Shown here: positions 19,305-42,245 of the stretch, one piece after another
Layout: each line of letters begins with the position of its first letter
How positions within the stretch are numbered: position 1 is the first letter of the stretch
Assembly (NCBI RefSeq): GCF_009914755.1
Contig: NC_060927.1
Source of the DNA: the human T2T-CHM13v2.0 reference genome, Homo sapiens
DNA length: 64,000 nucleotides
Strand: one strand, 5' to 3'
Made by a program: the position numbers and the translations under genes
The notes under the pieces: model-generated
Told to the model about the DNA's origin: nothing
The model's database searches: none
What the model saw: the letters and a program-made list of their open reading frames with translations, nothing else

Positions 19305-19462
19305 TTATCCAGTATGGTCTTTAGAACAGAGGCACTAGAATCAATTAGGGAGCTTGTTAAATATACAGATCACTGAGCTCTACTAGTGGCATACAAAATT
19401 AGTTTTGAAGGTGAGGTTTGGGGACTTGCATTTTAACCACCTTCACCGTTCATGGAGAACAG
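19305..19462. mobile_element. MER5-like hAT-Charlie fragment
   Basis: agaatcaattagggagcttgttaaatatacagat...ttgcattttaac. Confidence 0.6.
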
Positions 19463-19964
19463 CAGAAGCAGCATAGTGCTGAAGTGATTATTCAACCCAC
19501 AGAAGTCCATCAGTGAGATTACAGCTACACGGCAGATGGAACCTAAAAATGATGACTCCACTCTGGACGATATGCGTGCGAAGTGGTATAGTCCAGTGCA
19601 TCCTTAGAGGAGTAGGGGGCAATTGCTACAGACTATGACAAAACACAAAACTCAATGGGAGGGAGATTACTGCTGCTTAGGACACACTCCCTACTTTTTC
19701 TCTCTTCATCAACTGATTCTCTCATGACTCGGGCTGCTTCAGGTTAACTGAGAAACAGGACAGTAGCAAGCCTTCAGGAGCATGCGCCCTCCACTGGCTT
19801 GGATGCCTATCACAACGTCCTCTCCATCTGCCAGTGAATGCACCACACTGGGATGTGTTAAGATGAGCAGCCCTACTGGAAGCAGCTGCTAATGCTGTAA
19901 AGGTTGAGAGAAGTGATTCTCAAGGTGTTTACGACTTTTTCTTTTATACAGAAAATATATATTG

Positions 19965-20192
19965 CAGTGGTTCTTAAACTGGTGCATGCATCAGAATCAC
20001 GTGGAGGATCCTCGGCCTCAGACCCAGAGTTTGTGAATCAGTAGAAACAAGCCCTTGGCTTGGGGCTTGTTAATATAAGTAGGCTGGGCCCTTGGCCTAG
20101 AGTTTCTGATTCAGTAGGTTTGGGAGTGAGGATGAGTCTGTGCATAGTGCAGCTGATGCTACTGGTCTGGGTACCAGACTTCAGGATCACTG
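19965..20192. mobile_element. MER5A-like element with an internal duplication
   Basis: cagtggttcttaaact...atcagaatcac...ggatcactg; the segment agagtttNtgaNtcagtag occurs twice. Confidence 0.7.
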
Positions 20193-20374
20193 GTCTATAG
20201 TTTAAGGGATAGGATGATTTTAGGGGCAGTTTTCCAATGCAGACTATAATCCTGTGATTAAGAATATAAAAGTAGACCATCCATCTATCTTTCCTCTTAA
20301 ACATCAGAGAATAGGGATAGAAATATAGTCATATTACCCAGTTTGGAGATTAAAGTCTATCTTGAGAAATGGTA

Positions 20375-21040
20375 TGGTTTGATAGTTGAGTGATGGGCCT
20401 TGGGAGTCAGAACTGGTTTCAAATGTGGTCTTTTGGTGAGTTAGCTAACATCTTTGAGCTTCTTTGAGTTTCTTTGATTTTCTACATCTATAAACCAAGA
20501 ACAACAAAAATGCCTCCCTCTTAGGGTTTGTGTGGGAGATCTTTGGTTTGTCTCCAGTAGCATTTTCTTCCCTTGGCCATTTTGCAATGCCTTTTGTCCT
20601 TTGCTTTCCGGTGGGGTTCACCCCAGAAGGAATCCCAGCAGGAGCTCAAAGTGTGAAAGGAGAATGAAATAAGGAGTTAGGTGTTTCCTGCTCATCCTCT
20701 GTGGGGTCACTACAGTTGGCTGTGTCCCTCTCAGAAAGCCTACTGCTGGTTAGTGCTGTCTTACAGCCAGACCTCCTGTCTCTGTCTTCTTGAAATTCTA
20801 CTCAGCCCTTGGTGCCTTCTGCTTAGGGATAGTGATGGTTGTCTGTGGTTAATTTACTGAAACACACTATTCCTTGTTCATTCCCTTTAACCTCGCTGCC
20901 ACTTTTGTAAATAGTGCTTTGTGAAGGCCCATTTGACAGTACCCTCAATTGATGCTGGGGCCCTCACGGCTAAAACTGTGGTGAGAATACATGGAGAGAA
21001 TGCAGATAATGTACTTGGCTCAGTGCTGTCATCTAGTGGG
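20375..21040 (+). mobile_element. MIR split by an LTR33-like ERVL LTR (~20535-20976)
   Basis: The MIR left half ends at cttagggtttgtg and resumes at tgtggtgagaatacatggag. The middle carries an LTR33-like ccacttttgtaaatagt motif. Confidence 0.55.
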
Positions 21041-21359
21041 TGTACCCAGTCATGTTCATCATTATTACTGCTTTGTAATATTTGGTCTAAATTGTCCTTA
21101 TTGGTTATTTGTGCCTGTGGCACCTACTGACACATGAACAGCTCATTCATCCATTTTGGTTTCTTTAGACACCACTTAAATCATGTGGACTATCTTGCTA
21201 ATTTTCCTCAAACCTTGGCTAAAGTCATGTTTTCATTTTTTGGCATCTGTATTATTTAAGCCTTCAGATTTTTTTTGTTTCTTATAGGTTAACATTAACT
21301 AGTATGTGACTCCTATTTCTAACTTTGTTAATAAAATATATTGTTGGACACCATCTCCT

Positions 21360-21572
21360 CTTACAGAAGTACCATTATGGAAGATACCAAGTGCATGGCA
21401 AAATGGGGAAGAAGGAGCCTGAGTCTCTGGTGTCACCAAGGAGCTATTTTACCAGTTCTGAATGCACTGCTTCTTGATTCCTTTTTCTGTGAGAAAAATA
21501 AGCTGCAAATGGATAAGCCACAGTCATTAGGCTTTTTGTTGCATCCAGGCAAATGGAATCCTCACTGATACT
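21360..21572 (+). mobile_element. MLT1 LTR 3' fragment
   Basis: gtgagaaaaataagc...taagccac...aatcctcactgatac end. Confidence 0.55.
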
Positions 21573-23083
21573 CTCGTTCGGAGATTGAACTAGGTCTAGT
21601 CAGGGTCATCAAGAAACATTCAACAGAGTCATAAAAGTATTGCTTTGAGAAATGAATGCAACTTTAAAAAATGTGATTGGTTTCTATATTTAATCTGTAG
21701 CTCATGTCAAATGATTTCCTAAAAAAGGACTGTCCCTATCTTGGTCATTGCTGTATTCCAGATGTCTAGTACAATGCTTGACACAGAGTTAATACTCAGC
21801 AAATAAATACTTACTAAATATGTACAGTGTTTGTTTAGTAAAGGTTGTGACTGGTTAAATTTCTGGGCAATGACATGAGGATAAAATCACAGGGCTTATT
21901 CCCTTATTTATTGTCAGTATCTATAATCTGCCTGGGAGGAAAGATAACAGGCGGAAACTCTGGCATCTTTGTATTTATAAGACCTAGGACAATGTCCAGA
22001 GAGTGGTAGACCCTCAAAAAGTGTCAAGTAAGCAAATCAAGAAATGAAAGTGAATAGAAAAATGTTTTCTGTCTATTTACTTAGAAACCCCACAACTTTA
22101 AAGATATGTTGTATTTTCTCTTTACTTAAATTGCTTCTTTATTGCTTTTCCACATTTTTTTAAATTTAGAAAAATTATAATGTAGAAAGACCTGGAAGGG
22201 AAGATAAAATTTTCTGTAATCCTGCCATCATCTAGGCTTAAAAAAATTTCTGGATGCCTTTGATGAATTTTTTTCCCCATCAGCAATACCTTTCTTTTGG
22301 AAGCTTATTCTACTGAATTTTTTTTGCAACTTAGCTTGGTAATTGTGACTGACTTTCCAAATCTCTGTTAAACCAGGATAATGAGCGATACTTAAAGTTC
22401 TCATTTTTGCTTCAATTTACAAACCTTTAGAGCATTCAGTTCCTTTCACTGCATTCTTGATACTGTAATTTGCAACAACAGGCCCTTGTTCTCAAAGTAG
22501 TTTATTTAAAGATGCCTCATTTGCTGTTCCTCTGGGTATGTTATTATTGTACAGTACTTCTGAGTGTTATTATCCTTGTCTTCTTTTGACATACATGCGC
22601 AATAGCTGATATTTTTAGTGTGCTATTAATATTATTAAATCGTATTATGTATTTTATTTGGTTGATGTGTTATTACACAGTTACCTCTCAGATTTATATA
22701 TTTAATCTCAAAAATTAACTAGCATTCGTATTTTTTAAAGTGCTAGCAAAATGCCAAAGAAGTAATTAAAAATATAAGTAAACCCAAGCCAAAGGATTTT
22801 GAAGGACTTTATGACCTAATACTGGTTTGGGAAAGGGGAGAGGGCTGGGAAGGAAGTTGTTCTAGGAGATTTATTCTACGACTGTATAGGCACACAGCTA
22901 ATTTACCTTTAGAACTCTTCTGTGTCTTCCTTTAGTGGTAAATGGTTACTGATAAATGAGAAAGAACTGCCACTTATAATTTTAATATATAAATCCCATT
23001 TTATTCTAGCTTTCTCTCTTCCCTTTCTTTCATCCTCAACAACTGTGCAAATCTATGGGACGTTTTATGTTTTGTTTCTGAAG

Positions 23084-23690
23084 TTCATTCATTCATTCAG
23101 TCAGTCAGTCAATCAACACGTATTTATTAGGTGCCTGCTGTTCTGGGAACAAAACGGTGAGTGAGGCACAGAGGTTGCCATGGTGGGCAAAACCTGAGAG
23201 TCTTAGTTCTTCCGGGACTTGCAATCTAGTGGAGGGAGACGGGCGATTATCAACTAATCACAGTCAGGAGTCTATCATTATACAGCGGTATTAGTGCAAT
23301 GAAGAAAAGGATCACAGTTTAATGAGAAAGTAAAGGACCCTGGGACTGACTAGGGTCTTGGGCTCAAGGTCAGAGAGGATTCCCTGAGGAGGTAAAGTTT
23401 CAGCTGAGAGCATAGGATAAGTAGCAGGTCAAAGTTAAAAGGCTATAGAGAGGTGGTGGGGCATGAGGAAGTGTTCCAGATAGAGGGGGCCCGATTTAAG
23501 CTTAGTGACTGGAGAGGATATGGAATGATTGAGGCATTGGAAGAAAGACAGGTGGCTGTAATTCAGAAAGCCAGAGATAGAGTGAAGCTAGACATGGCTA
23601 GACAGGGAACTGGGCCCAAAATTATGCAAAGCCTTGAAGGTCATGTCAAGAATTTGGTCTATACCCTAAAAGCAATGGGAGGAAGCTGTG
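23084..23690 (-). mobile_element. L2 LINE 3' end
   Basis: (TTCA)n/(TCAG)n tail, tatttattaggtgcctgc, gccttgaaggtcatgtcaag...aagcaatggga. Confidence 0.75.
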
Positions 23691-23780
23691 AGGAACTTCA
23701 TTCCATTCTTTGGCTCTTAATCCTTTCTCCTTTGCATTATTGTCTTTTGTATACATGGTTTGTGGCTCTAATTAGGATAT

Positions 23781-24190
23781 TATGATGACTAGTTTTATTT
23801 GTCAGCTTGGCTAAGATATAGTGCCCAGATATTTGACCAAACATTATTCTGAATGTTTCTATGAGGCTGTTTTTAGATGAGACTAACATTTAAATTGATG
23901 GAGTAAAGCAGATTGCCTTCTGTAATGTGGGTGGGCCTCATCTAATCAGTTGAAGGCCTGAATAGAACAGAAGACTGAAATTCCCTAAGTAGGATGGAAT
24001 GTTGCAGCAGATGATACTCAGACTTGAGCTGCAACGTTGGCTTTTCTCAGCTCTCCAGCCTGCTAGCCGTTCCTGCAGACTGAAACGTGCAAGGCTGCAT
24101 GATCACGTGAGCCAGGTTCTTAAAACAAATCTGTCTGTTTATCTACACAACCTGTTGGTTCTGTTTCTATGGAGAACCCTAAGATAGATA
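23781..24190 (+). mobile_element. MLT2 (D-like) ERVL solo LTR
   Basis: cccagatatttgaccaaacattattctg...gtaaagcagattgcc...ggagaaccctaa. Confidence 0.85.
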
Positions 24191-26499
24191 TCATTATCTC
24201 CTTGAACACAGAGAATATGTTTCACTCATCTTTGCATGTTCCTAGTACCTAGTACTCTGCAAACAGTGACTGCTCAGAAAACTGGCATTTCATGAGACTG
24301 TCACATCCCAAAGGATGCTATTTGTACTATGCTTAAAATATAACTTATCAATGCTAAAAAGCTGTTTTCAAAAAATGTGTAAAAATCCCCAGACCTATAT
24401 AAGTTAAACTGTCTTATTGTATGCATTCTCAGGATACTTAATATACTGATATCTGGTGTGACAAAGATATCATCAAATATTCATAAGCCTTCTTTTAGTT
24501 CAGCCTCTTGTGGAACTTGTGTTTTCAGAACTTGCCTTGGGTAGTAGTAGAGAGAACATTCACTGAATCAGAGGGTAAATAATTACCCTTTATCTGGACT
24601 GGAATTATATATTTCTGTGTCTGGTTAATACACTGGGGGAAGAAAATGTTTTGTTTTATTTTGTTTTGGATTACTGAAGTTAGGCCAGATAACAAATCCG
24701 TTGACTAAAACTTTAGTGAGACAGTCTTTGTTTAAGAGTTTCACCCTACCTAGTATTATATGACATATTCAGGAGATCTAATAACTGAGTGAGAAGTTGC
24801 CAAAATGTTTATAGTTAATAGAGGAGAGAGGAAGACAATATCAGCATTACCTAGAACAGAGCCACTCAAAATGTGGTTGATGAGCTTGTATTGGTCTATA
24901 AACTGTGTCATGCTAATCTGCACAAAAGTGGATAGGAAGCATGGAGAAACATTTATAACCATTGAACAGAGTAATTTATGTCTGTTGATACAATTTAAAA
25001 AATTGGACACGTATTTATGTGCCTTCTTAAATATAATTTTTCTAGTAGTTAATCTTAATTGAGTTTCACAAAATTATTGATCTGTGATGAATTGAAGATT
25101 AAAATAATAAAGAAACAAATAACTGGTTAATCACCATAGACTAAGAAGCACTGGCCTAGTCTCACTGAGAAAAGTTTCCTGGGGAAGGGAAACTGCTCAG
25201 GGATAAGCCTAGGAGCAATGAATGACATTTTTGAGGAGGGACCACTATGAACAAAGGCCCAGAGACTGCACTGAACGGGTTTGTAGAGGACAATATGAGG
25301 TCAGCCTGGGTGGGTGGGCAAGGCAGGGGAAGGAGGGCCCAGGAATCCATTTGCACAACTTTCACGGAGACCGACCCCGTCCCTGTGTTTTTGTCAGACA
25401 GCATGGTGCTATAGACAAGCAACATTAGGAGGCTTGGCTAAACTCTGCTACCCTTTGGGAGGTCATTCCAGTTGTGTTCCCATTTCTGTATGAGTTTTAC
25501 TCGTTCATTTCTAAACAGGAGTGTTAATCTGAAGGTTGATTATTCCTCCAGTGGTTATGAGAGTGTGGTTACTTGGCAGAGACAACTCGAATTAAAGTGT
25601 TTACAGTAAACCAAGGCCAATTCAATGTTACTAGTTATCACTTGTTTACAAGATAATACTTCCGTTGCCCTGCCTCTGTACCCCTCCCCTCCAATCATGG
25701 GTGAATTTAAGAATATTATTTGATTCGATTCCATCTAGGAAATAGAAGACACTTGTCAAGTTCCTACGCCTGCCGGGTGTGTATTTTTTGCAGAACGTCC
25801 CTCATGTTGGGTTATTAAAATGATGGTTTTCCTGGCAAATACATTGCTTAGTTCCCCAGGAGATTTTAGTGGTGATGTTATATGCTCAAAAACAAAAATT
25901 CCATCCCGATGAAGAGGATATTTATAAAATTAATATTTTAGAAACTTGGAAAAAGCAACTGGGAGACCAAGTGGGACTAATATATTCATGCAAATGGCAG
26001 GTATATATTTTTTAACCTGATACTGTTTTTCTTTAAGTTATTGAAGTGACCATATTCCTAAGCTGAATGGAATTCCTTTTCTGTTTCCTGGTGAATTGTG
26101 AATACATAAGGTTTTAGACAAATATGAATCAGGGGGATTAGTTTGCAAAGTACAGATGATGGTGAAAATTGAGGGCTTATTTTAATTGGTTTCTTTTGAT
26201 TTTGCTTTTGTTGATATCTTAAACAATTTTTCTTTTCTCTTCTTTCCTTTATGATGTGATGTCCTAGTTAGTATTTTTATTTCTTTAATTATTTCATTCA
26301 ATATTATACCTATAACAAAGTATTGTTCTACTAGAAAGCTATTGAACTGTTGGCTATTCCAGCATAGGCCTGGTCAGTGACCTGGACTGTGAAGATACAA
26401 GAATAATTATCATTTCTGGCTGCTCAAGGGAGTGGCCTGGGGAATGGATGCATGGATAGATGAATGGATTCGTTCATTCATTAAAGCAAGCAAGCAAAA

Positions 26500-26656
26500 A
26501 TCTGTGTTACATCACAGATTGCTGTTCCCTGCTGCCCCCATGGCTTGCTGAGTTTCTAATTCAGCCAGGCTGGGGTTGGGGCCGGAGATTTTGCATTTCT
26601 GACGATGTCCCAGGCGGTGATAATTCTGGCCCTGGGACTGTACTAGAGAACCATGG
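26500..26656. mobile_element. MER5A-like fragment
   Basis: gagtttctaattcag...ttttgcatttctgac...gagaaccatgg. Confidence 0.6.
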
Positions 26657-27198
26657 TCTTAAAGGATTTGAACAGACTGAGTATGACTTTATTACCCAGC
26701 ACTTAACTAGAAGGTGCCCTCCCAAGCTTGAGAGAAAGACTTTGGAATAAGGGGTGGTATTCAGACAGACAGATCAAGGATCAAAGAGAGACAGAGCAAA
26801 TGGAGAAGGATGCAGGAGAAAGAATGAGTAGAACTGGAGGCAAGAAAGGGACATGGCATCTTAGCAGGAAGCAAAGATTTTCAGAGCAGAAGAGCAGAGG
26901 CATAGAGCGAACGTCCCCCCAGATCACAGGTTTATGTTTCATACTTAGACTTCAAGATGTGTTCCTTCAGAGATGACACCAGTCAGCTATGCTTTGGCTT
27001 AAAACTCTTTGTTCTCTGTTTATACAATCAGTATTCCTTCAACACGTGATGCCCTGTACACACAGTGTGCTCAAAATGAGAGCTTTAACATGTCAAAATT
27101 ATTATTTTCTCATCTCTCTGTATTATGTATTTTTACTCTGGAACAGACACTTTTAAGTGCTGGACATGTTGGAATTGAAAAAAAAAAAAAAAAATCAA

Positions 27199-27750: not shown

Positions 27751-28077
<327 letters not shown>

Positions 28078-28079
28078 AA

Positions 28080-28365
28080 TTTTTTTTTTTTTTTTGAGAT
28101 GGAGTCTCACTCTGTCACCCAGGCTGGAGTGCAGTGGCATGATCTTGGCTCTGCAACCTCCGCCTCCAGGTTTCAAGCGATTCTCCTGCCTCAGCCTCCT
28201 GAGTAGCTGGGATTACATACACGCCACCACGCCCAGCTAATTTTTGTATTTTTGGTAGAGACAGGGGTTCCACCATGTTGGCCAGGCTAGTCTCGAACTC
28301 CTGACCTCAGGTGATCTGCCCGCCTCAGCCTCCCAAAGTGCTGGCGTAAGCCACCGAGCCCGGCC
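28080..28365 (-). mobile_element. AluSx-like
   Basis: Full dimer with a small deletion near its 5' end. ataaataa flanks the two-Alu block on both sides. Confidence 0.95.
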
Positions 28366-28899
28366 ATAAATAAATTTTTTTAAATTGGAAATTGGTTCTG
28401 TGAGAGAGGGCAAGAGGGGCTGTTATCTAGTTTAGCATATGAGGTCACAGTTGCTTTGAGAAAGGGTCATTTGCATTGAGTCTTCAAGAGAGTTTTGGAG
28501 TCAAGGAGTTGAATACTGAGGGGTGGAAGGAGCGGAGTACGTGAAAGAGAAGAACCAAGAGGTGAGGATGGTAAAACTAAAGGGAAGCCATGAGGATGAC
28601 CAAGGTGGGCTTGGAGAGGAGGCAGAGCCTCTAGTTCATGTTAAAGCACTTTCCATCTTTTCAGAGAAGAGATGTTGCCACCATTGAGAACCTGAGGGGG
28701 CAGCACAGGTTGTAAAGTGGGAAGGCTCACTAAAGAGATAACTCATGATTTTTTAGTAAAGGGATAAGGGGAAAATATATTGAGTTAATAACCTGATGGC
28801 CTGGTTAACTTCCTGACAGAAGGAAAAATCTCTGTTCTACTAGACTTTGTGTGGTCCACAGGGTGAAAGGGGTAGAATGCTGTGAGGTAAAAGCTACAT

Positions 28900-29100
28900 T
28901 TATTTCATGCTTGTTTAAAGCCAGGCACTATGCCTTAAATGTTTAATATCTAAATAATATACTAATATTATTCCTTCAGAGAGGAAGAAATTGAGGCATA
29001 GAAAAATTTAGTGAATCTCCCGCCTGAGATTATACCATAGTTTGTAGTAGAGATGGGGTTTATACCTGTCCATTCTGATTCCAGAACTCATGCTATCTTT
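28900..29100 (-). mobile_element. MIR SINE
   Basis: gccaggcactatgc...agaggaagaaattgaggcatag...ctgattccaga. Confidence 0.6.
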
Positions 29101-29282
29101 ACAAATATCTTTCTATTTTTTTGTGGGGGGTGGGGGTTGGGGAAAGGAAAAAAAAAAAACAAGAAACAAGGGGAATGAAAAGATAGGGGAAAATGTGATT
29201 TGGTTCTTGCCAAAATCAACAAAAACCTTTTCGCTTTTTGGAAGGAAGACAAAATCCAAGATGCAAGTATCTAACAGATATG

Positions 29283-29492
29283 TTTTCCCCTCCCCTCCCC
29301 TTCCCTCCCCTCCCCTCCCCTCTCCTCTCTCCCTTCCCTTCCCCTCCCCTCCCCTCTCTCCTTTCCCTCCTCCTCCCCTCCCCTCTCTCCCTTCCCTTCC
29401 CCTCCCCTTCCCTGTCTCCCTTCCCCTCCCCTCCCCTGTCTCCCTTCCCCTCCCCTCCCCTCTCTCCCTTCCCCTCCTTTCCCCTCTTCCTT
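29283..29492 (+). repeat. (CCCCT)n-type polypyrimidine low-complexity tract
   Basis: About 210 bp of almost pure C/T built from CCCCT/CCCTT units. Confidence 0.95.
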
Positions 29493-29748
29493 GTTCCTAT
29501 GAGTCTCTGAATCCTTTTCTGTACACAGATGAAGGCTAGCCCACAAGCCGATAAGTGTTCATTGCTCCTGCATAAATAAAATATATGAACATTGTCCTGA
29601 AGAAGGAAAAGCTTGCACAGTTCTTGGTTAATAGAGTCCATAGACTCTGAGTAGGACCCAGGCCTGTTGGTGACTTTCCACATTTGTACAAGCTTTTCCC
29701 TCTTTCCTTTCCCCTCAGTTTCCTGGCAAACTTCTTCTTTAGACCACC

Positions 29749-29968
29749 TAGGGTTGGCAAACTTTTTGAGTAATGTGCCAGAAAGGAAACATTTTCATCT
29801 TCGTGGGACAGTCTCTGTTGCAACTACTCACCTCTACTGTTGTAATGCAAAAGCAGCCATAGACAGTACATAAACAAATGAATGTGCTGTGTTCCAATAA
29901 AACTTTATTTAACAAGAATAAGCAGCAGGTCAGATGGGACTATGGGCTATAGTTTGCTGACATTTCTT
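29749..29968 (+). mobile_element. MER58A DNA transposon
   Basis: tagggttggcaaact...gtctctgttgcaactactca...ccaataaaactttattt...tagtttgctgac. Confidence 0.88.
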
Positions 29969-30508
29969 CTAGACCAAGCATAAATGTTACATCTTAAATC
30001 TATGTTGGTAGCATTTATTTGTCGTTCCTCCATGTTTTTTTTTTTTTTTTGGCTCAAATCTCTGTAATATATTATCTTTGAAAATCTTTTTGCAAAGCTG
30101 TCTTTTCACCCTGTTGTGATCTTTTCTGAGGCAAATACTAACTTTTATTTACCTGTTGTTTACTATGGGACTTGGCAAGTATCTCATTAAAATGTGTTGG
30201 TGTTTTGAGTGAGACAGTGTAAAGCTGTACTTTCCAAAAATAGCCAGATCAATATTTCCAATCTACAAGCACTTCTGGAACCCTGATGCTCCCCAGTGAG
30301 AGACAGTCTCTTCCCTGTCTCTTCGAACCCAGTTTGGACTTAGTGACTGCTTCAATGAATACAATGTGATAGAAGTCATGCTGCATGATATTGGAGACTA
30401 GGTCATATAACTTCCATTTGATGCTCTCTTTCTTTCTCTCTCTTTTAGGACTCACATCCTTGGATCCCAGACTCTTTGATGACAGGAAGGCCAAACTATC
30501 TCAAATGT

Positions 30509-30703
30509 AAAATATGAAGTAGTTTACTAATTTTCTTCAGTTTCTCTTAGCATAGAGGACTGGGGAGTTAAGAAGGGTTCTTAGAAAGCTTCTGTTGAAA
30601 CTGCCTTTCCTATCTAAGTTTATCTTTTATTCCCATGAGATGAAAGTGAAGAGTAGGGATGTATGTGTGAGAGAAAGAGCAATAAAGAAAGCAGTGTACC
30701 ACA

Positions 30704-30747
<44 letters not shown>

Positions 30748-30811
30748 TATATGTAACTAAGAAGCTTACATGTGAGTTGTCCATTAGGGTTTTCATGAAG
30801 AACTTACAGTG
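30509..30811 (+). repeat. Dispersed direct duplication, derived copy (of 32225-32505), containing (AC)19
   Basis: Direct alignment: 5 mismatches over 30531-30660, and 2 over the last 65 nt. Confidence 0.97.
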
Positions 30812-30934
30812 AGCCTACACGGAGTTGTCCATACACAGAAGAACTGAGACCCCCCAGCCCCTGTCACTAGTGACAGCTCTCATTAACCTCCTGACATGCA
30901 GGCAAATGAGCATTCAGGGCTCCAGGGAGCGACA

Positions 30935-31121
30935 TCCAGCCAGCGGCTTGTTTTCATAAATAAAGTTTTATTGGCACATATTATGTTCATTCATTTACAT
31001 ATGATCAATGGCTTCTACTACCCTGCAATAGCAGAAATGGGTAGTCATGGCAGAGCCTATGCCCTGCAAAGCCAAGAATACTTACTCTCTGGCTCTTTAC
31101 AGAAAAATGTCTTGCCTCCTG
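30935..31121 (-). mobile_element. MER58A fragment
   Basis: aaataaagttttattgg...gcaaagccaagaatacttactctctggctctttacagaaaaa. Confidence 0.8.
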
Positions 31122-32224
31122 TCTCTCAGCCTTCACGTCTTCCATTAAGGTGTGGTAATCTGGAGCAGAGACAACCATGCCTGCTGTGTCTTGAGTTCCT
31201 GATTTGCAGAAATCATGAACATAATAAGTAGTTACCCTATAACATGACATTTGACAATAGTTTGTTATGCAATCAGAGTACCTGGAACACAGTTGAATAC
31301 AGAGCTTGGGAAAACTCAAACTTATGTTTGTTAAAATACCAGAAGATCTAAACCTCCTTTCTTCTTTACCTGTTCCTCCATCCCCCAACACACACCCCTA
31401 TTCAGACTTTTTGTAGTCTTCAAATTCCAGCTAAGACTAAGGAACATGACTACCTATCTCCACTTTATTGTTTGCAGTATTAAGTTACATTTTCCTTCTA
31501 GAGGGAAAATATTAGTTATAAGTGTCCTGATTAACCTTAAGAAATAAGAATATTTTGTCTATATAGGAGAACTATAGTTTCAACTATTGTTTCCAGATCT
31601 CTCAAACCATGAAGTCTCATTAAAAATGAAAAAAAAAGATAGTCTTTTTTTTTTTTTCTTAATCACTGCGAGCATCTCAAATGGATAAGCAACAACCTCC
31701 AATCTCACAGCACTGGTAATTGTGGCTCAGAGTTCATGCAGATGGAGACATCAGTAAAATACCCGGAATCAGGTTCTGTATTTTCTCCGTTTGCCGTTCA
31801 TCAAAATGAAACGTTTTCATGAAGAGGATTAAAGGCCACAAATAAAATATATTGTAATGCTCCCTTTGAAATATTTAAGGCATTTATTAAAAAAAGGGCA
31901 GTTTAAGATGAAAGGTCAGTCAGTGATAATCAATTTCTTTAACATTGATATGATTCTTATTAAACATTTATCATTTGGGTGTCACTTCAGAGGGCTCTGG
32001 AAATCATTTTTCATTGTCTACATATCATTTTGCAGTTGTCAACTGCCCAGCAGCAACAAACATTACACCTCAATTCTTCTTCACAGTATAGTATTTATGG
32101 ACTTATTTTTCTGAACTTCTGGGTTCTGAGAAATTACATAGTGGATAGGCATTTATAGCATGCAATTGTTCACACAGTTTTCTGTAAGTTGGAGAGGGAG
32201 TTTTTCTTTGATTACACTTTTAAC

Positions 32225-32505
32225 AAAATATGGAGAAGTTGGATGCAGTTTTCTTATTTTCTTCAGTTTCTCTCAGCATAGAGGACTGGGGAGTTAAGAA
32301 GTGTTCTTAGGTAGCTTCTGTTGAACCTGCCTTTCCTATCTAAGTTTATCTTTTATTCCCATGAGATGAAAGTGAAGAGTAGGGATGTGTGTGAGAGAGA
32401 AAGAGAAATTAAGAAAGCAACATACAACACACACATACATTTATATGTAACTAAGAAGCTTACATGTGAGTTGTCCATTAGGGTTTTCATGAAGACCTTG
32501 CAGTG
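32225..32505 (+). repeat. Dispersed direct duplication, probable source copy
   Basis: Same sequence as 30509-30811, embedded in non-repetitive DNA. Confidence 0.97.
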
Positions 32506-32589
32506 CCAATATTCTCCTGCTTCTTTCTTTACCCCGATGTTGGGTTATTGATTTGACTTTTAGGGTAATATCAATTAACTCCTGGGGGC

Positions 32590-32855
32590 AAGGTAGCATT
32601 GTGGAGAAGAGCAAGAGCTTTGGTTTCATGTATCACAAACTTTGAATCTTAGCTCTGCTATTTTTTAGCTCCTACCTTTTGGTGAGTTACTTAAATTTTC
32701 TAAACCACAGTTTTTATAAACCCTCAATTTCTGTTAAATGGAGATAGTAATGCTTACCTCATAGGGTGGTCATTGTGTGGATTAGATGAGATACAATTAT
32801 TTTGCATGATGCCTGTGCTTGGCATATAGCAAGCCATGATAAATATTAATAGTTC
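32590..32855 (+). mobile_element. MIR SINE
   Basis: ttgaatcttagctctgcta...tgagttacttaa...ttacctcatagggtgg...gattagatgagat. Confidence 0.75.
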
Positions 32856-33522
32856 ACATAGTTCTTATTACTACATTTGCTGTCTCTACCAAGGGCTTAG
32901 CTATATGGGTAGAAAGTGTTTACTGTTTCAAAGAAACCACTGGAGATGTTCACGTATGGGAGAACTGTTCAAAAATGTTTCTCCTATTTTGTGTTACATT
33001 GTCTACATTTTGACACCATTTTAGTGTCAATTCCTTAAAACACACTTTCTGGGATAAACATTAATCAAAGTATGAATGTTACCTGGGAAATGTCACATGT
33101 TAAAATTCAGATCCATGGATTTGAAGATCAGATTCACTAACTGTTGTATGGGGCACATCAAATTATCAGAATTGTGTGACCCTGAATGGGATGAATTTTT
33201 CCAGGGCAGGAGATGGAGAGAGGAGTACAAAGCAGAAAGGACAAGCCTGGATATTGTGGCACCTGTGTACCTGTATGATAGAGTATTGAAAACTTGGAGG
33301 AAAGAGATACCAAGAAAATTTCAACAGTTTACAAATGTCTTGTGAAGCAGGGTGTCGTCAAAAATAGTGTTTCACCTAGCTCCTGTTTAACACGTTTGTG
33401 TACCCCTTTCCTAGATGATTTTGGTTCTAACAACCAACCCTCATGGCCTATTCTTGGAGAACTTCCATCAGGGTACTTGAGCCAACTTGTACTCACAAAT
33501 GCCCAAGAAGTGCCTGGATGAC

Positions 33523-34470
33523 TGTGATGGTTAATTTTCTGTGTGCCGAAGGCAAAGGGAATACAGATTTTGTAGTGGAAGAAAGTAAGTATAAATACCA
33601 GCTACAACCATGTGACCAGTTAAGAAATGACCGTAATTATCATCAGTATTTCCTCCTTATTTTGTCATTAATGTTGGTGTATATATATATGATATACATG
33701 TGTGTATCTATGCATATATGAGAAAACTTTTCTTACCCCTCTATTCTCCTCTTATATAACATAAGCTGTATTGTATTTATATCATAATATTTAGGTATTA
33801 TTAATTTTACATCATAATATTAAAGTTTGGGGATATAAAGAGAAGAGTAAACATCTTAATGACTTTGGAGAAGAGTTCAATGTATTTTCAGTTGTACACA
33901 GGATAGTTGTATCACGGTAGGCATAATTGGCATAATTAGGATCTTGTTATTGTCTTTATTTGGAGATTATGTATGGTTTAGGGATATGCCTATAGGTGCC
34001 AAGTTGAGAAGGGGTGGGCTTGAGATGGTTAAGTTTATGTGTCAACCTGATTAGGCCACAGTGTTCTCAGATATTTGGCTAAACATTATTCTGGGAGTGT
34101 CTGTGAGGCTGTTTCTGGATGAGATTAATATTTGAATTGGTGGACGGAGTAAAGCAGATTGCCCTCCCTAGGATGGGTGGACGTCATCCTATCCTTTGAG
34201 GCTTCAATAGAGCAAGAAGGCTGGGCAAGGGAGAATTCTCTCTCTCTAATTCAGATAGGATACTTGTTTTTTCCTGTTTCAACTTGGACTCATACTGAAA
34301 CTTCACCGTTGGCTCTACTGGGTCTCCAGCTCACTGACTGCAGATTTTGGGACTTTTTGATCTTTATAACCACATGAGCCAATTCCTTATAATAAATATT
34401 ATTTCTGTATATAATATATAATATGATAATTTAATCTATTACCTATCTTCATATCTGTATTTGTCTATCA

Positions 34471-34516
<46 letters not shown>

Positions 34517-34547
34517 TCTGTTTCTCTGGAGAACCCAGACTAATACA
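33523..34547 (+). mobile_element. Internally deleted ERVL provirus: 22 nt of 5' MLT2 LTR, 3' internal region, PPT and complete 3' MLT2B LTR (34021-34547)
   Basis: tgtgatggttaattttctgtgt is joined to gaaggcaaagggaatacag...aaataccagctacaaccatgtgaccag. PPT aagttgagaaggggtgg. TSD atgac / atgat. Confidence 0.88.
34471..34516 (+). repeat. (ATCT)11 microsatellite inside the MLT2 LTR
   Basis: Directly visible tandem repeat. Confidence 0.95.
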
Positions 34548-36613
34548 ATGATCCTTAGCCAAAGACTCACACTTGCTGCCTACTTGGGACAGCTCTGAGC
34601 CATAGCTTATATTCCAGAGTTTCCCTGTGAAATCAGGCGAAACATAGCCTCTGAACAATTTTGCATGAGGTCTCATTTTTGCTTAACTTTTTCCTCTTCC
34701 CTGGGTGAAAAGGAAAAAGTCTGTCTCTCCTGGGAGAGCCCTTCCTCAATAAATCACTTGTACACAAATCCTTGTCTCAGGGTCTGCTTCTGAGGAAACT
34801 GACCAGAGGCAGGATGAAAGTAAATACAGTTTTCTGTTACTTCAACAGAGCTGGCAAAATATATTTAGAGAGAGAGAGAGAAAATAGACCAGTTGTTTTG
34901 GTGGAGACTTTGAAGGACTAACTCGTCATTAAAGGAGATCTTGAAAAAAACAGTGGTTCACCTGTCCTACATAACAAATTTATGGGTGCTTGCACGATAG
35001 AACATATAGCAAGGGATAAGGAGGACAGAAGAGATGAGACCAAGAAACACGGATGGTCAAACAAAATTTCCCATGGAATTTTATCCTATATTCCCCCTAG
35101 CAGGTATGTCTTTCATTCCATTCTAAGTTATTTGCTGCAATATCAACCACCTCTTCTTTAGCTTGATGCTGTGAACCTTTGTCTGCTACACACATAGCCC
35201 CGTGCTGGGAGAATTGGGGGAAGTAAAACTGGGAGGTAGGGTCTAATTGTAAAGAGTCCTGGAGCAAAAATGCTGCATTTAAGAAATCTGTAAACTGGAA
35301 TAATTCATTAGAATCAGGAATTTGCAGCCAGTGATGATTATGAGAAATATATGTACCATCTCCCAAATTTCCAAAGCATTTTAGGGAGTAGATGGATGTC
35401 CCATTATTTAATAGATAGATAGAACCCTGAGCGATTTTATTTCAATTGGGAAGGACTGAGTGAACCCAGCTGACATCTGGCTCTGCTTGCTTCTCTATTA
35501 CATTGAATGGTCTATAGTTAGCTTTGCAGGAAGCAAATATTTCTAGTTCTTTAACTCCAAAGTGTTTTTTTCCATTTATGTTTTTCATTGGCATAACCTG
35601 AGAAAAAGGGCTAAAAACAGGGCAGAACAGAAAATTCATTTATTGACAGCCTATGGGGGGCAGAAGAGGAGGGTGCCTGAAAATATCTCCTTTCACATGC
35701 AGGAGAAAAAAAGAATGGATTTAATTACCATGATTAGAACCAATTAAGTACCTAATTCTGCTCCTGAGAGCTAAAGGCCATTTGAGGGATTGCTAACTTG
35801 AAACACTTATAAACCAGGGTAGAAAGGATAACCTCCCCTAGACAATGAATATCCACCATTTTGGAAAAGATACTGAGAGAGAGGTGTCGGAGTCTATCGG
35901 AAAGAATGTCCCCAGCGTCCATGAATACTCCTAAAATTGGGAACACTGTTCATTTTCTCATTCCAGAATCTTCATTTGACCATTGGACAGTTTCTCTTCT
36001 CCAACCTACCTTATATGGTTTTTATGAGAATTAAATTAAAGAATGAGTGGGTAGATGAACCCTACATTATAGTTGCCCAAAGTGGGGGTCAGAGGACAGT
36101 TTCCAATGGTATTGCTGATCCTTACTAGTCCAAAAGCTTGGCTATAGACCTTTCTTTAGCTCTATTTTTTTTCCCTCCCCAAATTCTGTTCTTGTCTGTG
36201 TCATAAATTAGCTTACTCTCCTTCTGAAGGAATATCTATATCTGTGTTCATAGTAATATATTTTAATTGTTGCATAGTCTACAAATTTCTTAAAAAACAG
36301 ACCACAGAAATCTAAGCATAGATTAATAATTACTAAGTGCACATGACTGAAATTTATTGAAGACTAACATCTTTGGTTTATGTGAGAAACATTTGATACA
36401 CTGTGAATACCTCTTATCAGAGAACATGTAGCTCATATATTATCCCCATCTGTACGCCAGTAAAGAACACGGCTAACTAATCATGGCATTCTTTCTCACT
36501 GTGTCTAAATGTAGACAGAGAATCCTCAACACTGGACATCACAAGAAAATGATCAGAGTTGGTGTGTGAGCAGAGCCTGTTTGCAATTTCTCCTCTAAAA
36601 TCTGTCAACTCTT

Positions 36614-36778: not shown

Positions 36779-36992
36779 ACGAGTATGTTTTTGAGTTCTT
36801 GCTCACATGACAGCTAGCTAAGAGTATTTCACAGCAAGGTGAAGACAGGCAATGAGATAACTGTTGCCTTGAGATGGGGTGAAAAGTTGTGAATTATTGT
36901 ATAATGAGACGATGCTCAAAGGGCAGATGGGATTGTAAAGGGAAAAGAGGAAGTTCAGGAAAACAACCTTCCATTACTTCTTTCTTTAGAGC

Positions 36993-37304
36993 TGCACTGT
37001 CCAATATGGTAGCACCAGGCATAGGTGGCTACTGAGAATTTGAAATGTAGATAGCCTCAGTTGAGAAGTGCTATAGGTGTCACATATAACACTAGATTTT
37101 GAAGACAGAAAAAATAAGGTAAAGTGGTTTATTAGTATTTTTTGTATTAATTACATATTGAAATCACGAGTTTGGTTATATTGGGATAAGTAAAATATAG
37201 TATTAAGCTTAATTTCACCCGTTTCTCTTTGCTTTTAAAAAATGTGACTACTAGAAAATTAAAATTACACATGTCTTTCCTTGTGTTTTCATTGGATAGC
37301 TCTG
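36993..37304. mobile_element. MER33 hAT-Charlie element
   Basis: ctgcactgtccaatatggtagc...cattggatagctctg termini. Confidence 0.8.
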
Positions 37305-37829
37305 ATCTAGGGCATGGGTTTTTGCTTCGGTTCCAATACCTGTAAAAGTATCCATGTATAGAGTTTTAGAAGACTGGGAAATCTCTGAAATTATATGCCC
37401 CATGTTATATGCATCTACATATGTGAATTTTTCTGAAAGAGTATCAGTAACTTTTGATCAGAATTTGTGATACAGAACAAGGGTAATCACCATTGGTCTA
37501 GAGTCTTTCATAGAAGGGTATGAGACCTTAAAGTGGAATTTTAGAAGGTAAAATGCAAGACCTTTCCTCACTTCTGAAATCCTCGGAGAAGAAATCTAGG
37601 ATTCATTATCACAGGGTTGAAACTATATCTAGGTAAAGGCAGTGGTTGGGTACCTTATTCACCATCTTATTCCCAGCATCTGACATGCAGTGTTGGCATC
37701 CTCCAAAAATTTTGTCATTTAATGTCTTTGAGATCATCACCTGTGAAAATTTATAGGTCATTATTTTCTGCATAGATACTAAACATATTTTTGGAGAAAA
37801 AATGACAACTTGGAACTCATTTGGAAAAT

Positions 37830-38275
37830 GTGTTTGCATAGGTGGATTCTCTCAAATCTAAGGATTTGAAACAATGATATGAAAGCAAGTAGTTTAATTG
37901 CAAGGCAACCCAGGAAGCACCCGTAGGGAAGTGGAGAAGTAAGGCAAGGACAAAAGGAAAGCAAGTTCAAGGTAGATTAATGAGCAGGTTATTGCTGTTG
38001 GTTCTTTGGGAGACTACATAGATCATGTCTCAGAGTTGTCCCATGTGAAGGGCGAGGAAGCCATCAACTCTTATGTGTCATGGGTTGGAGGCCATTTCTG
38101 GGTCAGAAATTTCCCAGATCTTCTATCTTCCTGGGGTGAGGGCTGAGGGGTCCCTTCTACCAGCCAAGGAAAGCACTCAAGCTTGAGATGTGGCCACATG
38201 CAATCAGAGGCAGTCCATAGGTTTGGAGAGGGTGAGTGTTAAGGGAATGTAGGCAGGATACCAACAACTTAAGCT
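37830..38275 (-). mobile_element. LTR16-like ERVL LTR
   Basis: gcaagtagtttaattg...cccaggaagcacccgtagggaagtggagaagt. Confidence 0.6.
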
Positions 38276-39529
38276 AAGTGTCGCATGGAGTGCTGTGGCT
38301 AGAAGTCACTCTTTAGTTTTGTAGCAGTAAACAGGACAGATGTGTTTATTATAAGATAATGGTCCCAATCCAGTAGACGCAGAAAACTGTGCATATAAGA
38401 ATTTAATGAAGATGGCAGTCTGCTTTCTGTGGATAAAAGAAAATTCTAAATTTATACCACAGGCTTGTTTGCATATAGACCCATCCCAACTAACATTGTT
38501 TTTCAAGTATTGTAATATGAATGTGTACTCATAAGAAAGTGGATCTTTGAGTGTTGTTGAAAAACCATTTGAAAAGCTGTAATTATTGTGAAACAATTTG
38601 GCAAGGGTAAGGTTTGTTGGTAGAGATGAAAAGCAGTTTTGAGGCCAAGAGTTTGCTATTTTCCCACAAACAAGCTTAATGGAAAACACAATTATTTCCT
38701 CTTCTTGGCCAACTTAAAATGTGTAAATGTTCTCTACAAGCAGTAAGTGCAAATTTTGTCCCATTAATATAGATGAAGGCGGTCTGTTTCTAGTATTGAC
38801 AACACCAAACTTTTAAAGTATTTTAAGAAGAACTATAATGCATATCAAACTGGAGGGGAAAAAAAGTCATCCGATAGATCAATAGATTACAATGTTTATT
38901 CTTTCAAATCTATTCTCCATTAGAAATGCTCAAGTATTAGGATAAAAATGGTATATAAGTAAAACAGTTTTCACTTTGTCTATGAGAAATTTGAAGGGAA
39001 GTGTGTCTCAACTTTTTTTTTTTTTACCTTAGAGAAATACATAGCTGTCCTTTATAAAGTTTATTTTATTCATTTTCAGGAACACTCTGGCCCTCATCTC
39101 CTAAAGGCAAAAACATGATATAGATGAGCTTGAGCTCTGCTATAAACAGGGCTATTCAAACTTTTGAATTGGCTGACCTCCAGCACTGCATTTGTGGGAG
39201 GCAATGGGGCAGGACAATAGAAAGAAAATAACCAATAGCATTTTATTCTATTTCTAATTTATTTTCCCATTAGCAAATTATAAAACATAATTACTCAAGT
39301 AATATAACCTATTCATTCAAATTAGAATGTCTGGAAATGTTCTGTTTGCCTTTTTTTAAGTGAGGTTTTACTGGAGAACAGCTAGAAATATCTACATAGT
39401 GTTTTTGAAACTATGTAAACTATCATAACAAGGTTGCCCTCCCTATACAAATTCAAAATCTGTAGACTTTTCTGCAGGGTTTACAGGCTAGTTCCTACCT
39501 GTCTCTAGCATCACCCCATGACTGCCTTG

Positions 39530-39905
39530 TCTTTCTGACTGTACTTCAGCTGCCTGGACCTTCCCTTCTTCTCTATCACCCCAAACACTTTCTCTCCTCA
39601 AGGTCTGGGTGTGCTGTGTGCTGTGCCCTCTGATTGGAATGCCCTCTCCTGTTACCTCCCACACATCCTTGCTACTTATCTTCCTATTTATCTGCCCTTC
39701 CCAGCTGACCCCTGTCATCTGCTGGAGCACCCTTCACTTTTTACTCATTGTGCTTAAATACCATTGTGGTTTTTATAGTTATTCAAGGGCTAATTTATTT
39801 ATTGTTTGGCTTTTTCACCTCAACCATGACTGTTCAAAATTCATCCTATGATACAACAGTCAACATATAGCAGGTATTTAATATGTTTTTGGTGAATAAA
39901 TGAGT
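39530..39905 (+). mobile_element. L2 fragment
   Basis: ctgtgccctctgattggaatgccctc...ggtatttaatatgtttttggtgaataaatga. Confidence 0.6.
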
Positions 39906-41089
39906 AAGTGTATGACTCGAGATGCTGATCCATTTGCCTTCTTGGTGGTTTCTATGTCATTATGACTTTTCTTTTGACTTAAACATGGTATCTCCCCTGT
40001 AAGGTTAAGGGTTGAGCAATTATACCAAATCATAAAGTGCTGGATTTGTTCATTAGGGAAAGTCCCGTAGGGTTTTCCTTGAGATCTATCTTTGCTGTTT
40101 ACATCAGCGTCTGAATTCCTCATTTTGTAATTGTTCAAATATCTTGTTTCACTTCGTCTCCATGTGGGCACTGCTGTACCATGCTTATCTGGCACAAAAT
40201 GTTCATCGCACACTATTTGTTGAATAAATGAATGAATGAAGAGAATGCAATCAGAAATGTTCCTTTCCAAATGTATATATCATTGATGGACTGGGCTATC
40301 TTCTGGGAAATTTGCAAGTTTTAGATTGGATCAAATAATGGATCACTCATTTACTTTGATGTCTTCTGAGACAAAGAGTTCATGAAGGGAGTTTGCTTCA
40401 TGGGCTTATGCTTCAGGGGCCTGAGATGTCCAACCTGACTGACATCAGTGCTTTAGAGATGCAAGTGCAACCAGGATGCCTAGTAGGACAATCGGCTGGG
40501 GGAAATCACTAGGGCAGAGTGAGGATGAGCTGCCATTGACTTTAATGAAAGAGACAATCTCTATGGGAAATTCAGGTCAGATGGAAATGACCCACACTGA
40601 GCCTGTGTAGATTTCTATCATGACAACCTTCTGTTATATACCATCTCTTCCCTTTTTAATGTGAGAGCCATGGTTAATTGTTGTCTTTCCACTTCTTGGC
40701 TCTTTACCTTGTCTGCTATAGGACACTGAGAGTAATTACTTGAAAGAATTCCTTTAGTGCAATCCAGAATCCTCAGGCATCTGAGAAACTTTTCTTAAAA
40801 ATTTTAACTCAGCAAAAAGTTAGAAGTTTTTTTTTTTTTCCTGACAAAGCATTTTTTAGATCACCCTAAAATATTTGGATAATGCAGGCAGTGGCACTTC
40901 ACTTCTGCTAGGAATAGGATCTGCTCCATAGCAATGTCTATATATCCATTCATTAATTAATGTATCATATGTGTGTCCAGACTGTATTGATAAGGATATG
41001 TTTTAGATAAAATAATGGCTATAGAGACAACACTGAATCATGTTTTTGGTTTTCTGCTCTGATACCCTCCTTTCTTGTGGCAAGGTCTG

Positions 41090-42245
41090 TTTATCCTTCA
41101 ATTCCATCTTACAGCTTTGTTTGCTGCCACCTCCTTAGTGCAAGCCACCATCATCCCTCATCAAGACTACTCTAACAGCCATCTGATTACTCTCATCCAT
41201 CTGTGCCTCTCTCTAAGCTGCTGTTCTCGGCAACTAGATCCGGAGGGACACTTTCAAATCTCAAATTCTCTCATGTCATTTTCTTTGTTTAAAACATTTC
41301 CAAGGCTTTCCATTTTTCTTAGAATACATTTAACGGACCAGTCTCTCCAGCCACATGGTTCACTGGGCATCTTGTTGCCCTCCATGTTTACCCATACAAA
41401 CTGTCTTTCTACCACAGATGCTTTGTAAATGCTGTTCCTTCTGCCTAGAATGCCCTTTCCTCCCTCCCTCCCATCTTCACCTAGTTTACTCCTATTCACC
41501 CTTCAGATTGTAACTTAGCCATCAGTTGCCTGTTTAGTACCCTGGTTAATTTTATGCGTCAACTTGACGGGCCTTGGGGTGCCCCGGCATTTGGTCAAAC
41601 ATTATTTTGGGTGTGTCTGTGAGGGTGTTTCCGGATGAGATTAACATTTGAATCAATAAACTGAGTAAAGCAGATCTGGCATTCCCTAATATGGGTGGGT
41701 CTAATCCAGTCAACTGAAGATGTGAATAGAACACGACAAGTGAGAAGGAACTCCTCCTGTTTGAGCTGGGACGTTTGGTTTCATCTGGTCTTAGGACTTT
41801 GACTAAAACACTGGCTTTTCTTGGGTCTTGAGCCTGCCAGCTTTCAGACGGGAACTTATATCATTGGCTCTCCTTGTTCTCAGACTTTGGGACTCAGACG
41901 GGCGCTACTACGTATTGACTCTCCTGGATCTCCAGCTTGAGGACGGCAGAACTGAGAACTTCTCAGCCTCCTTAGTTGGATGAACCAATTGCTTATAATA
42001 GATCTCTGGAGAACCCTCACTAATACAACCCACCCTCTCACATACACACACTTTTATCCACTCTTCTAGAGAAGTACTTTGTAGGACATACATATTTGAC
42101 CTTTTACATCTATTTGTGTGATTATTTAATGAAGTCTCTCTCTCCATTACAGTGACTGTCCCAAATGGGCAGAGACAGGGACTTTTCTGAGATTTTACTA
42201 GAGTGTAGCACATAGCACTGTACCAGGCACATATTTGATGATGAG
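41090..42245 (+). mobile_element. L2 LINE split by an MLT2 LTR
   Basis: caagccaccatcatc...gctgttccttctgcctagaatgccc; resumes after 42027. Confidence 0.7.
41537..42027 (+). mobile_element. MLT2B-like ERVL solo LTR
   Basis: ggttaattttatgcgtcaacttgac...ggtcaaacattatt...ggagaaccctcactaataca. Confidence 0.88.

What the first reader, a model, noticed from the sequence alone, without database searches (positions are those of the whole stretch)
30499..32505. ~300-bp templated insertion: unique DNA copied 1.7 kb upstream into an MLT1 LTR, no TSD or poly(A)
Seen: 30509-30811 is a direct copy of 32225-32505 (5 mismatches in the first 130-nt core, 2 in the last 65 nt). The copy splits an MLT1 LTR cleanly: ...aggaaggccaaacta (30498) rejoins gcctacacggag (30813). 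There is ~10 nt of filler (tctcaaatgt) at the left junction and no tail or TSD. The motif gagttgtccat occurs both near the insert end and just beyond the right junction. Inference: this is a double-strand-break repair or template-switch insertion (synthesis-dependent or polymerase theta-type), much younger than its host LTR. The direction is inferred from the interrupted LTR.
Basis: partly seen in the sequence, partly recalled or inferred. Interest (0 to 1): 0.7.

Follow-up and report, generated by a model that had tools for sequence, protein, structure and literature searches.

The report
DNA-repair patch inside an old LTR
A 300-base piece of unique human DNA is copied 1.7 kb away into the middle of an old retrovirus-like repeat, likely as a patch made during DNA-break repair in a primate ancestor; more than 800 such cases are already catalogued, so it is an ordinary new example.

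Summary
Real, but a known class. 30509-30811 is a direct copy of 32225-32505: 254 matches, 17 mismatches, 42 gap columns, with only these 2 matches genome-wide. The two LTR halves are in register in 15 of 30 sibling copies (within 2 nt; shuffled mean 0.77), so the upstream copy is the insert. It has a 10-nt filler, no TSD and no tail. This is a proximal 'repair-mediated duplication' as defined by Pace et al. 2009 (824 human cases); the locus is not among the 130 chr3 cells of their Table S1. Divergence is 2.7-5.5%, so it is roughly 6-23 My old and probably fixed. Polymerase theta alone is unlikely to have made the 300-nt tract. Three extras: (1) the filler supplies the GT splice donor of the predicted lncRNA LOC105376940; (2) the filler matches a 10-mer in the spacer (p 0.02-0.12); (3) a neighbouring 150 bp (31840-31989) has a second copy on chr4 with an 11-nt flanking repeat, a TTTT/A site and an ATTAAA, but no poly(A). 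Two copies from one 670-bp stretch hint at germ-line transcription; this is untested.

The parts
30261..30498 (+). 5' part of an old dispersed LTR (MLT1/MaLR; name recalled), the acceptor element
   Evidence: Matches 5 other loci at 71-83%; aligns to sibling copies from 30261; in register with the 3' part
30343..30506 (+). Exon 1 of the predicted lncRNA LOC105376940 (XR_007073287.1); starts in the LTR, its last 8 nt are filler
   Evidence: Hub annotation; exon end read off
30499..30508 (+). 10-nt junction filler; its last two bases (30507-30508) are the GT of the lncRNA's first intron
   Evidence: Not in the donor's left flank; donor site fits 6 of 9 consensus positions
30509..30811 (+). Acceptor copy (the insert); ragged first 12 nt, base 30812 can be given to either side
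30700..30744 (.). (CA)22.5 microsatellite, long only in the acceptor; the donor has a short interrupted CA run
30813..30933 (+). LTR continuation right of the insert; holds the 11-mer at 30822 shared with the insert end
30934..31107 (.). A second, high-copy repeat nested in the same LTR (MER58-like DNA transposon; name recalled)
   Evidence: 539 candidates, 39 non-self matches at 72-78%
31110..31292 (+). Probable 3' remainder of the LTR
   Evidence: Weak alignments to sibling copies; no direct genome match besides itself
31674..31683 (+). Possible template of the filler (exact 10-mer match to 30498-30507)
   Evidence: chance 0.024 for spacer plus donor on the + strand, 0.042 on both strands, 0.12 for 6 kb on both strands
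31840..31989 (+). Source of a second copy, on chr4 (G000:C4:144982604-144982753, minus strand); ATTAAA at 31959, 25 nt before the end
   Evidence: 134 matches, 15 mismatches, 2 gaps
32225..32505 (+). Donor: unique DNA, no ORF or RNA family claimed, no TSD
   Evidence: Rfam 0 matches in 28000-36000

Best explanation
A 300-base copy of nearby unique DNA sits inside an old LTR whose two halves still line up, and it likely arose when a germ-line double-strand break in the LTR was patched by synthesis from a template 1.7 kb downstream, probably 6-23 million years ago. Shown: the copy, its uniqueness, its direct orientation, the unbroken LTR register, filler at the left junction, no TSD or tail. The ragged left junction (filler, 10 missing bases, clustered mismatches) likely marks the end-joining side, where short stop-and-restart synthesis added the filler, perhaps from 31674-31683. 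The CA array likely grew afterwards. The insert is most likely neutral; its one visible effect is that the junction provides the splice donor of a predicted lncRNA.
For: Unique pair. LTR halves in register in 15 of 30 siblings against a null of 0.77; of the 12 of 30 siblings that aligned across the insert, 10 gave a skipped length of 307-322 nt, mode 314, equal to filler plus copy. Filler, no TSD, no tail. Size 314 nt and gap 1.4 kb sit inside Pace et al.'s ranges (maximum 619 bp, peak distance about 1.2 kb, filler 1-68 nt; none of 39 inspected proximal cases had a tail). Mismatches are denser in the 10 nt next to each junction (4 of 20 against 9 of 218, Fisher p 0.016, windows chosen after looking), as expected of error-prone joining.
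Against: No clear priming microhomology at either end (at most 3 nt). No empty site from another primate could be seen, so breakpoints rest on 25-30%-diverged siblings that seem to be of a different subfamily; 18 of 30 did not align across the insert and the skipped stretch slid left by up to about 65 nt in 11 of the other 12. The end product cannot tell SDSA from a fork template switch, a captured fragment or a cDNA patch. The shared 11-mer (absent from 30 of 30 siblings) stays unexplained.
Confidence: 0.62

Rival explanations
1. Replication-fork template switching (FoSTeS/MMBIR type): the fork in the LTR jumped forward to the donor, perhaps by way of 31674-31683, copied it and jumped back to the base it had left.
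For: Both the filler match and the donor lie downstream on the same strand and in order; mismatches cluster at junctions.
Against: The return is exact to within about 2 nt, which is simpler for two held break ends than for a free return; the filler match is borderline (p 0.02-0.12).
Confidence: 0.15
2. RNA-templated patch: a transcript running from the LTR across the donor was reverse-transcribed (L1 ORF2p without its endonuclease, or a repair polymerase) into a break in its own promoter.
For: Copy is sense to the LTR and to the predicted lncRNA, and lies in its first intron (annotation). The neighbouring 150 bp has a chr4 copy with an 11-nt flanking repeat, a TTTT/A site and an ATTAAA 25 nt before its end, which hints at germ-line RNA here. 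Class 2 templated insertions lack TSD and tail and were linked to RNA in cell experiments (PMC5110952).
Against: No splicing, tail or poly(A) signal at the donor's end. The donor lies 236 nt beyond the inferred RNA end at 31989. The chr4 copy has no poly(A) and is older (10.1% against 5.5%; intervals overlap). Orientation is a coin toss.
Confidence: 0.12
3. A free DNA fragment from nearby (excised flap or small circle) was captured at the break by end joining, with no synthesis on a chromosomal template.
For: Little microhomology at both ends; filler is typical of end joining.
Against: Does not explain well why the source is intact and 1.4 kb away, the modal distance of the class.
Confidence: 0.06
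4. Two steps: tandem duplication of 30812-32505, then loss of 1.4 kb from the first copy.
For: Gives the same final order of segments (what the sequence shows).
Against: The deletion would have to start within about 2 nt of the duplication's own breakpoint, and no remnant of a second LTR 3' part or spacer exists.
Confidence: 0.04
5. The 300 bp is an unrecognised repeat family, or the downstream copy is the derived one.
For: The genome search is insensitive to old copies: two LTR pieces found only themselves.
Against: 2 matches of 2 candidates; 94% identity between the two neighbours; only the upstream copy interrupts an element; no TSD at the donor.
Confidence: 0.01

Closest known systems
Proximal repair-mediated duplications (RDs), Pace, Sen, Batzer & Feschotte 2009, PMC2671141 (main text parts 1-6 of 8 read; Table S1 part 1 of 15 read and all 130 chr3 cells seen)
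   Same: Transposon interrupted by a single-copy sequence whose donor lies under 5 kb away; 50-619 bp; filler, no tail; divergence like their HCO/HCOR rows (about 2.5-14%).
   Different: About twice their mean size (162 bp); not listed in Table S1; carries a microsatellite that grew in the copy; the junction makes a splice donor; a neighbouring stretch has a second, interchromosomal copy.
'Doublets', short paired duplications (Thomas et al.; seen only as described in Pace et al.'s Discussion)
   Same: Short, local, non-tandem pair, proposed to come from break repair.
   Different: The studies cited there dealt with near-identical pairs under 100 bp; this one is 300 bp and 5.5% diverged.
Class 2 templated sequence insertion polymorphisms, Onozawa & Aplan 2016, PMC5110952 (parts 1-2 of 4 read)
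   Same: No TSD, tail or poly(A) signal; junction filler.
   Different: Those are polymorphic and come from distant sites; this is local and, by divergence, probably fixed.
Polymerase theta templated insertions (TINS), PMC7165422 (12 passages seen)
   Same: Locally templated, AT-rich short patches from repeated rounds of synthesis; the 10-nt filler would fit.
   Different: First-round tracts are rarely over 10 bp; the main tract here is about 280 nt from 1.7 kb away.
Class 1 TSIP / L1-mediated retrocopy of non-genic RNA (for the chr4 copy only), PMC5110952
   Same: 11-nt flanking repeat, TTTT/A site, ATTAAA 25 nt before the end.
   Different: No poly(A) tail; 10 of the 11 repeat bases are also the donor's own first bases, so they may be priming microhomology.

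Membership tests
Proximal repair-mediated duplication (Pace 2009) | Interrupts a transposon whose two parts are within 30 bp in family coordinates and share orientation | tested here: met
   15 of 30 siblings within 2 nt, 18 within 7 nt; null 0.77 and 2.33. Tested on sibling copies, not on a Repbase/Dfam model.
Proximal repair-mediated duplication (Pace 2009) | Insert of at least 50 bp found at exactly one other place | tested here: met
   314 nt; 2 matches of 2 candidates
Proximal repair-mediated duplication (Pace 2009) | Donor more than 50 bp and less than 5 kb from the acceptor | tested here: met
   1412 nt between copies
Proximal repair-mediated duplication (Pace 2009) | Junctions show filler, deletion or microhomology and no poly(A/T) tail | tested here: met
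   10-nt filler; no tail; no TSD over 4 nt
Proximal repair-mediated duplication (Pace 2009) | Flanks not duplicated (not a segmental duplication) | tested here: met
   Self-comparison ends at the copy's edges; 31300-33200 gives no long second match
Proximal repair-mediated duplication (Pace 2009) | Empty orthologous site in an outgroup | not testable with these tools
   No relative of this genome is held
Polymerase theta TINS | Synthesis tracts rarely over 10 bp, templated next to the break | tested here: not met
   Main tract about 280 nt from 1.7 kb away; only the filler fits, and its template is borderline
L1-mediated retrocopy / class 1 TSIP (local insert) | TSD, poly(A) tail, poly(A) signal near the 3' end | tested here: not met
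   None at 30499-30812; no signal in the last 100 nt of the donor
L1-mediated retrocopy / class 1 TSIP (chr4 copy of 31840-31989) | TSD of 5 bp or more and TTTT/A site | tested here: inconclusive
   11-nt repeat at L040:1490 and 1641 followed by A, but 10 of its bases coincide with the donor's start
L1-mediated retrocopy / class 1 TSIP (chr4 copy of 31840-31989) | Poly(A) signal 10-30 nt before the end | tested here: met
   ATTAAA at 31959; 3.3% of window positions and 7.5% of local positions have such a signal by chance
L1-mediated retrocopy / class 1 TSIP (chr4 copy of 31840-31989) | Non-templated poly(A) tail | tested here: not met
   No A beyond the donor's last base and the flanking repeat
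MLT1 (ERVL-MaLR) solo LTR as host | Match to a curated family model | not testable with these tools
   No repeat library is held; shown only to be a dispersed repeat (770 candidates). Name recalled.

The most novel reading that the evidence does not exclude
This LTR drove a germ-line transcript in ancestral primates, and the stretch downstream of it was copied out twice through that transcription: once to chr4 (L1-type site, ending 25 nt after an ATTAAA) and once back into the LTR itself, where the repair junction created the splice donor that today's lncRNA uses. Proximal repair-mediated duplications would then be, at least in part, transcription- or RNA-templated rather than purely DNA-templated, and repair scars would be a source of new exon ends.
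Probability: 0.1. Interest if true: 0.55.

Novelty: new member of a known kind. Interest (0 to 1): 0.22.

Why it matters
On its own it adds one case to a list of 824. It is a tidy example: both LTR halves in register, a datable pair, and a microsatellite long in one copy only. The two side findings give it some value. A junction-made splice donor would show a repair scar shaping a transcript, which Pace et al. raised as a possibility for duplicated splice sites but not for filler. A second copy from the same 670 bp has a rough prior of 3 in 10,000 for a given locus (0.6 expected among all such duplications genome-wide; scaled from Pace et al.'s counts), so coincidence is not excluded, but it suggests a cheap genome-wide test of whether these donors are transcribed in the germ line.

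Tried and rejected
Tandem array or inverted-repeat origin: only the CA array and unrelated simple repeats. Structured RNA: 0 Rfam matches in 28000-36000. Direct genome searches with the two right-hand LTR pieces found only themselves, so siblings were reached through L006. A first long-gap alignment with cheap gaps fragmented and was not used; one search used a higher penalty. The 11-mer as joining microhomology: rejected on geometry; as a native LTR motif: 0 of 30 siblings have it. Background rate of stray copies: 13450-27100 was swamped by one repeat family (39 of 9364 candidates scored) and 36850-41450 gave only one repeat family (40 of 835 scored), so both are weak controls. Identity of the chr4 host sequence (it looks like old antisense L1 to me, from recall): not shown; genome searches, local BLAST and nhmmer over 331 kb of held DNA and three PDB searches found no relative, and one search returned no loci to align, so direction chr3 to chr4 rests on the flanking repeat being present only on chr4. 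No L1 source seen by eye in 28380-29820, so 3' transduction has no support. Literature: Table S1 of PMC2671141 has no chr3 row between 0.1 and 8.6 Mb (prefix searches). LOC105376940 is named in 2 papers, both as a table entry only. Searches for the class. Supplements held in the 'store' were not listed; later catalogues in subscription journals were not searchable.

Full report
Observation. The window shows a direct repeat pair, 30509-30811 and 32225-32505. A gapped alignment gives 254 matches, 17 mismatches and 42 gap columns. The gaps are 10 donor bases missing near the left end of the upstream copy and about 31 extra bases of a (CA)22.5 array in it. Searched against the whole genome, the donor gives 2 matches of 2 candidates, itself and the upstream copy.

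Direction. The left flank is a dispersed repeat (5 other loci). One of these, L006, led to 29 more copies (top 40 of 770 candidates). Each half of the window's element was aligned on its own to these 30 copies. The right half began within 2 nt of where the left half ended in 15 of 30 and within 7 nt in 18 of 30; 100 shuffles of the right half gave means of 0.77 (max 4) and 2.33 (max 10); the start of the insert continued the left half in 0 of 30. With the insert left in and one long gap allowed, 12 of 30 copies aligned across it, 10 of them skipping 307-322 nt (mode 314; the other two 278 and 294); 18 stopped at the left half. The skipped stretch slid left by up to about 65 nt in 11 of the 12, because the siblings are 25-30% diverged and the insert's end resembles them slightly. 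So the upstream copy is the insert, with little or nothing lost at the target; the exact base is good to about 2 nt.

Junctions. Left: 10 nt not found beside the donor (30499-30508), then a ragged 12 nt. Right: the copy runs to 30811 and the LTR resumes, with one base that either side can claim. No TSD, no tail, no poly(A) signal at the donor's end. The filler plus the base before it matches 31674-31683 exactly; 15-mers drawn at random reach a 10-nt match in 2.4% (spacer plus donor, + strand), 4.2% (both strands) or 12% (6 kb, both strands) of 3000 trials, so templating is possible, not shown. The 11-mer shared by the insert end and the right flank has a chance level of 4.2% and is absent from 30 of 30 siblings. 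It cannot be the joining microhomology, since sequence on both sides of it survives. It may be chance or a brief slip of the polymerase back into the new copy; an outgroup would decide. Mismatches are denser in the 10 nt beside each junction (4 of 20 against 9 of 218; p 0.016, post hoc).

Age. Outside the microsatellite, 13 of 238 aligned bases differ (5.5%; 95% interval 2.9-9.2%); in the two clean cores 5 of 187 (2.7%). That is 6-12 My at Pace et al.'s rate of 2.2e-9 per year or 11-23 My at a recalled 1.2e-9. Table S1 chr3 rows of similar divergence are mostly shared by great apes or by catarrhines, some by all primates. The insert is far younger than its LTR but probably fixed. The longest identical tract is 62 nt, short for recombination between the copies (recalled).

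What is known. Pace et al. 2009 (PMC2671141; parts 1-6 of 8 read) found such events by exactly this logic: a transposon split by single-copy DNA. They list 824 with the donor under 5 kb away, mean 162 bp, maximum 619 bp, peak distance about 1.2 kb, filler 1-68 nt, and no tail in 39 of 39 inspected; they ascribe them to SDSA. This locus meets five of their criteria tested here; the empty site could not be tested. It is not in their Table S1: all 130 chr3 cells were seen and none lies between 0.1 and 8.6 Mb. Class 2 TSIPs (PMC5110952, parts 1-2 of 4) share the junction type but come from far away. Polymerase theta's first tracts are rarely over 10 bp (PMC7165422, passages), so it fits the filler at most. 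Template switching in meiotic break repair, with an excess of variants under 2 kb, is reported in PMC7615360 (passages). RNA-templated repair in human cells appears in a search listing (PMC12065846, abstract start only).

Mechanism. Most likely (0.62) a germ-line break in the LTR, one end extended on the donor for about 280 nt, released and end-joined, the ragged left side being the join. Rivals: fork template switch (0.15), RNA-templated patch (0.12), captured fragment (0.06), tandem duplication plus deletion (0.04), unknown repeat or reversed direction (0.01). The first four differ only in the route; that this is an inserted local copy at a break-like junction is about 95% sure. All routes are inferred from the end product.

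Side finding 1. RefSeq's predicted lncRNA LOC105376940 starts in the LTR and its exon 1 ends at 30506. The last 8 exon bases and the intron's GT are filler, and the next four bases are the start of the copy. The site is weak (6 of 9 consensus positions, lacking both the -1 G and the +5 G), a better one (8 of 9) lies unused at 30772, and the model is only predicted. If reads support it, the repair junction made this splice donor. Two papers name the gene, as table entries only.

Side finding 2. 31840-31989, 236 nt left of the donor, has a copy on chr4 (134 matches, 15 mismatches, 2 gaps). On chr4 it is flanked by an 11-nt direct repeat ending at a TTTT/A site; the chr3 source has no such repeat at its edges; an ATTAAA lies 25 nt before its end (3-7% by chance). 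There is no poly(A) tail, and 10 of the 11 repeat bases are also the source's first bases, so an L1-made retrocopy and a microhomology-primed DNA capture both remain (about even). The chr4 host sequence was not identified. Scaling Pace et al.'s 254 interchromosomal cases gives about 3 in 10,000 for such a donor in a given 1.7 kb, but 0.6 expected across all proximal duplications; my two background searches were too crowded by repeats to help. It is a hint of germ-line transcription from the LTR, no more.

Verdict. Observation confirmed, interpretation supported, class known since 2009. New member of a known kind; interest 0.22.

Noticed in passing
window 31840-31989 and L040:1501-1650 (G000:C4:144982604-144982753): Second, interchromosomal copy (90% identical) of unique DNA 236 nt from the donor; 11-nt flanking repeat, TTTT/A site and ATTAAA, no poly(A).
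   Followed up: partly
window 30499-30512: The insertion's filler and first bases form the 5' splice site of exon 1 of the predicted lncRNA LOC105376940; a better-matching GT site at 30772 inside the copy is not used by the model.
   Followed up: partly
window 30694-30746 against 32420-32440: A (CA)22.5 array in the copy faces a short interrupted CA run in the donor: a paired case of microsatellite birth or decay; polarity needs an outgroup.
   Followed up: partly
window 30934-31107: A high-copy DNA-transposon-like repeat (MER58-like, recalled) is nested in the same LTR, so the element carries two insertions; a related element lies inverted at 29763-29929 (67%).
   Followed up: no
window 31814-31826: A 13-nt stretch just left of the chr4-copied segment also occurs near the ends of both the donor and the insert (seen by eye); no longer similarity, probably chance.
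   Followed up: no
window 45288-45705: The lncRNA's last exon overlaps another dispersed LTR-like repeat (matches 9691-9926 at 84%), so the model both starts and ends in LTR-like sequence.
   Followed up: no
window 17330-18065: A 730-nt repeat with many 84-88% genomic copies that is not in NCBI's masked list for the window.
   Followed up: no
window 36985-37310: Repeat whose copies include several near chromosome ends.
   Followed up: no
window 29285-29487: 200-nt C/T-rich pentamer array about 1 kb upstream of the insertion site; possible non-B DNA, no link shown.
   Followed up: no
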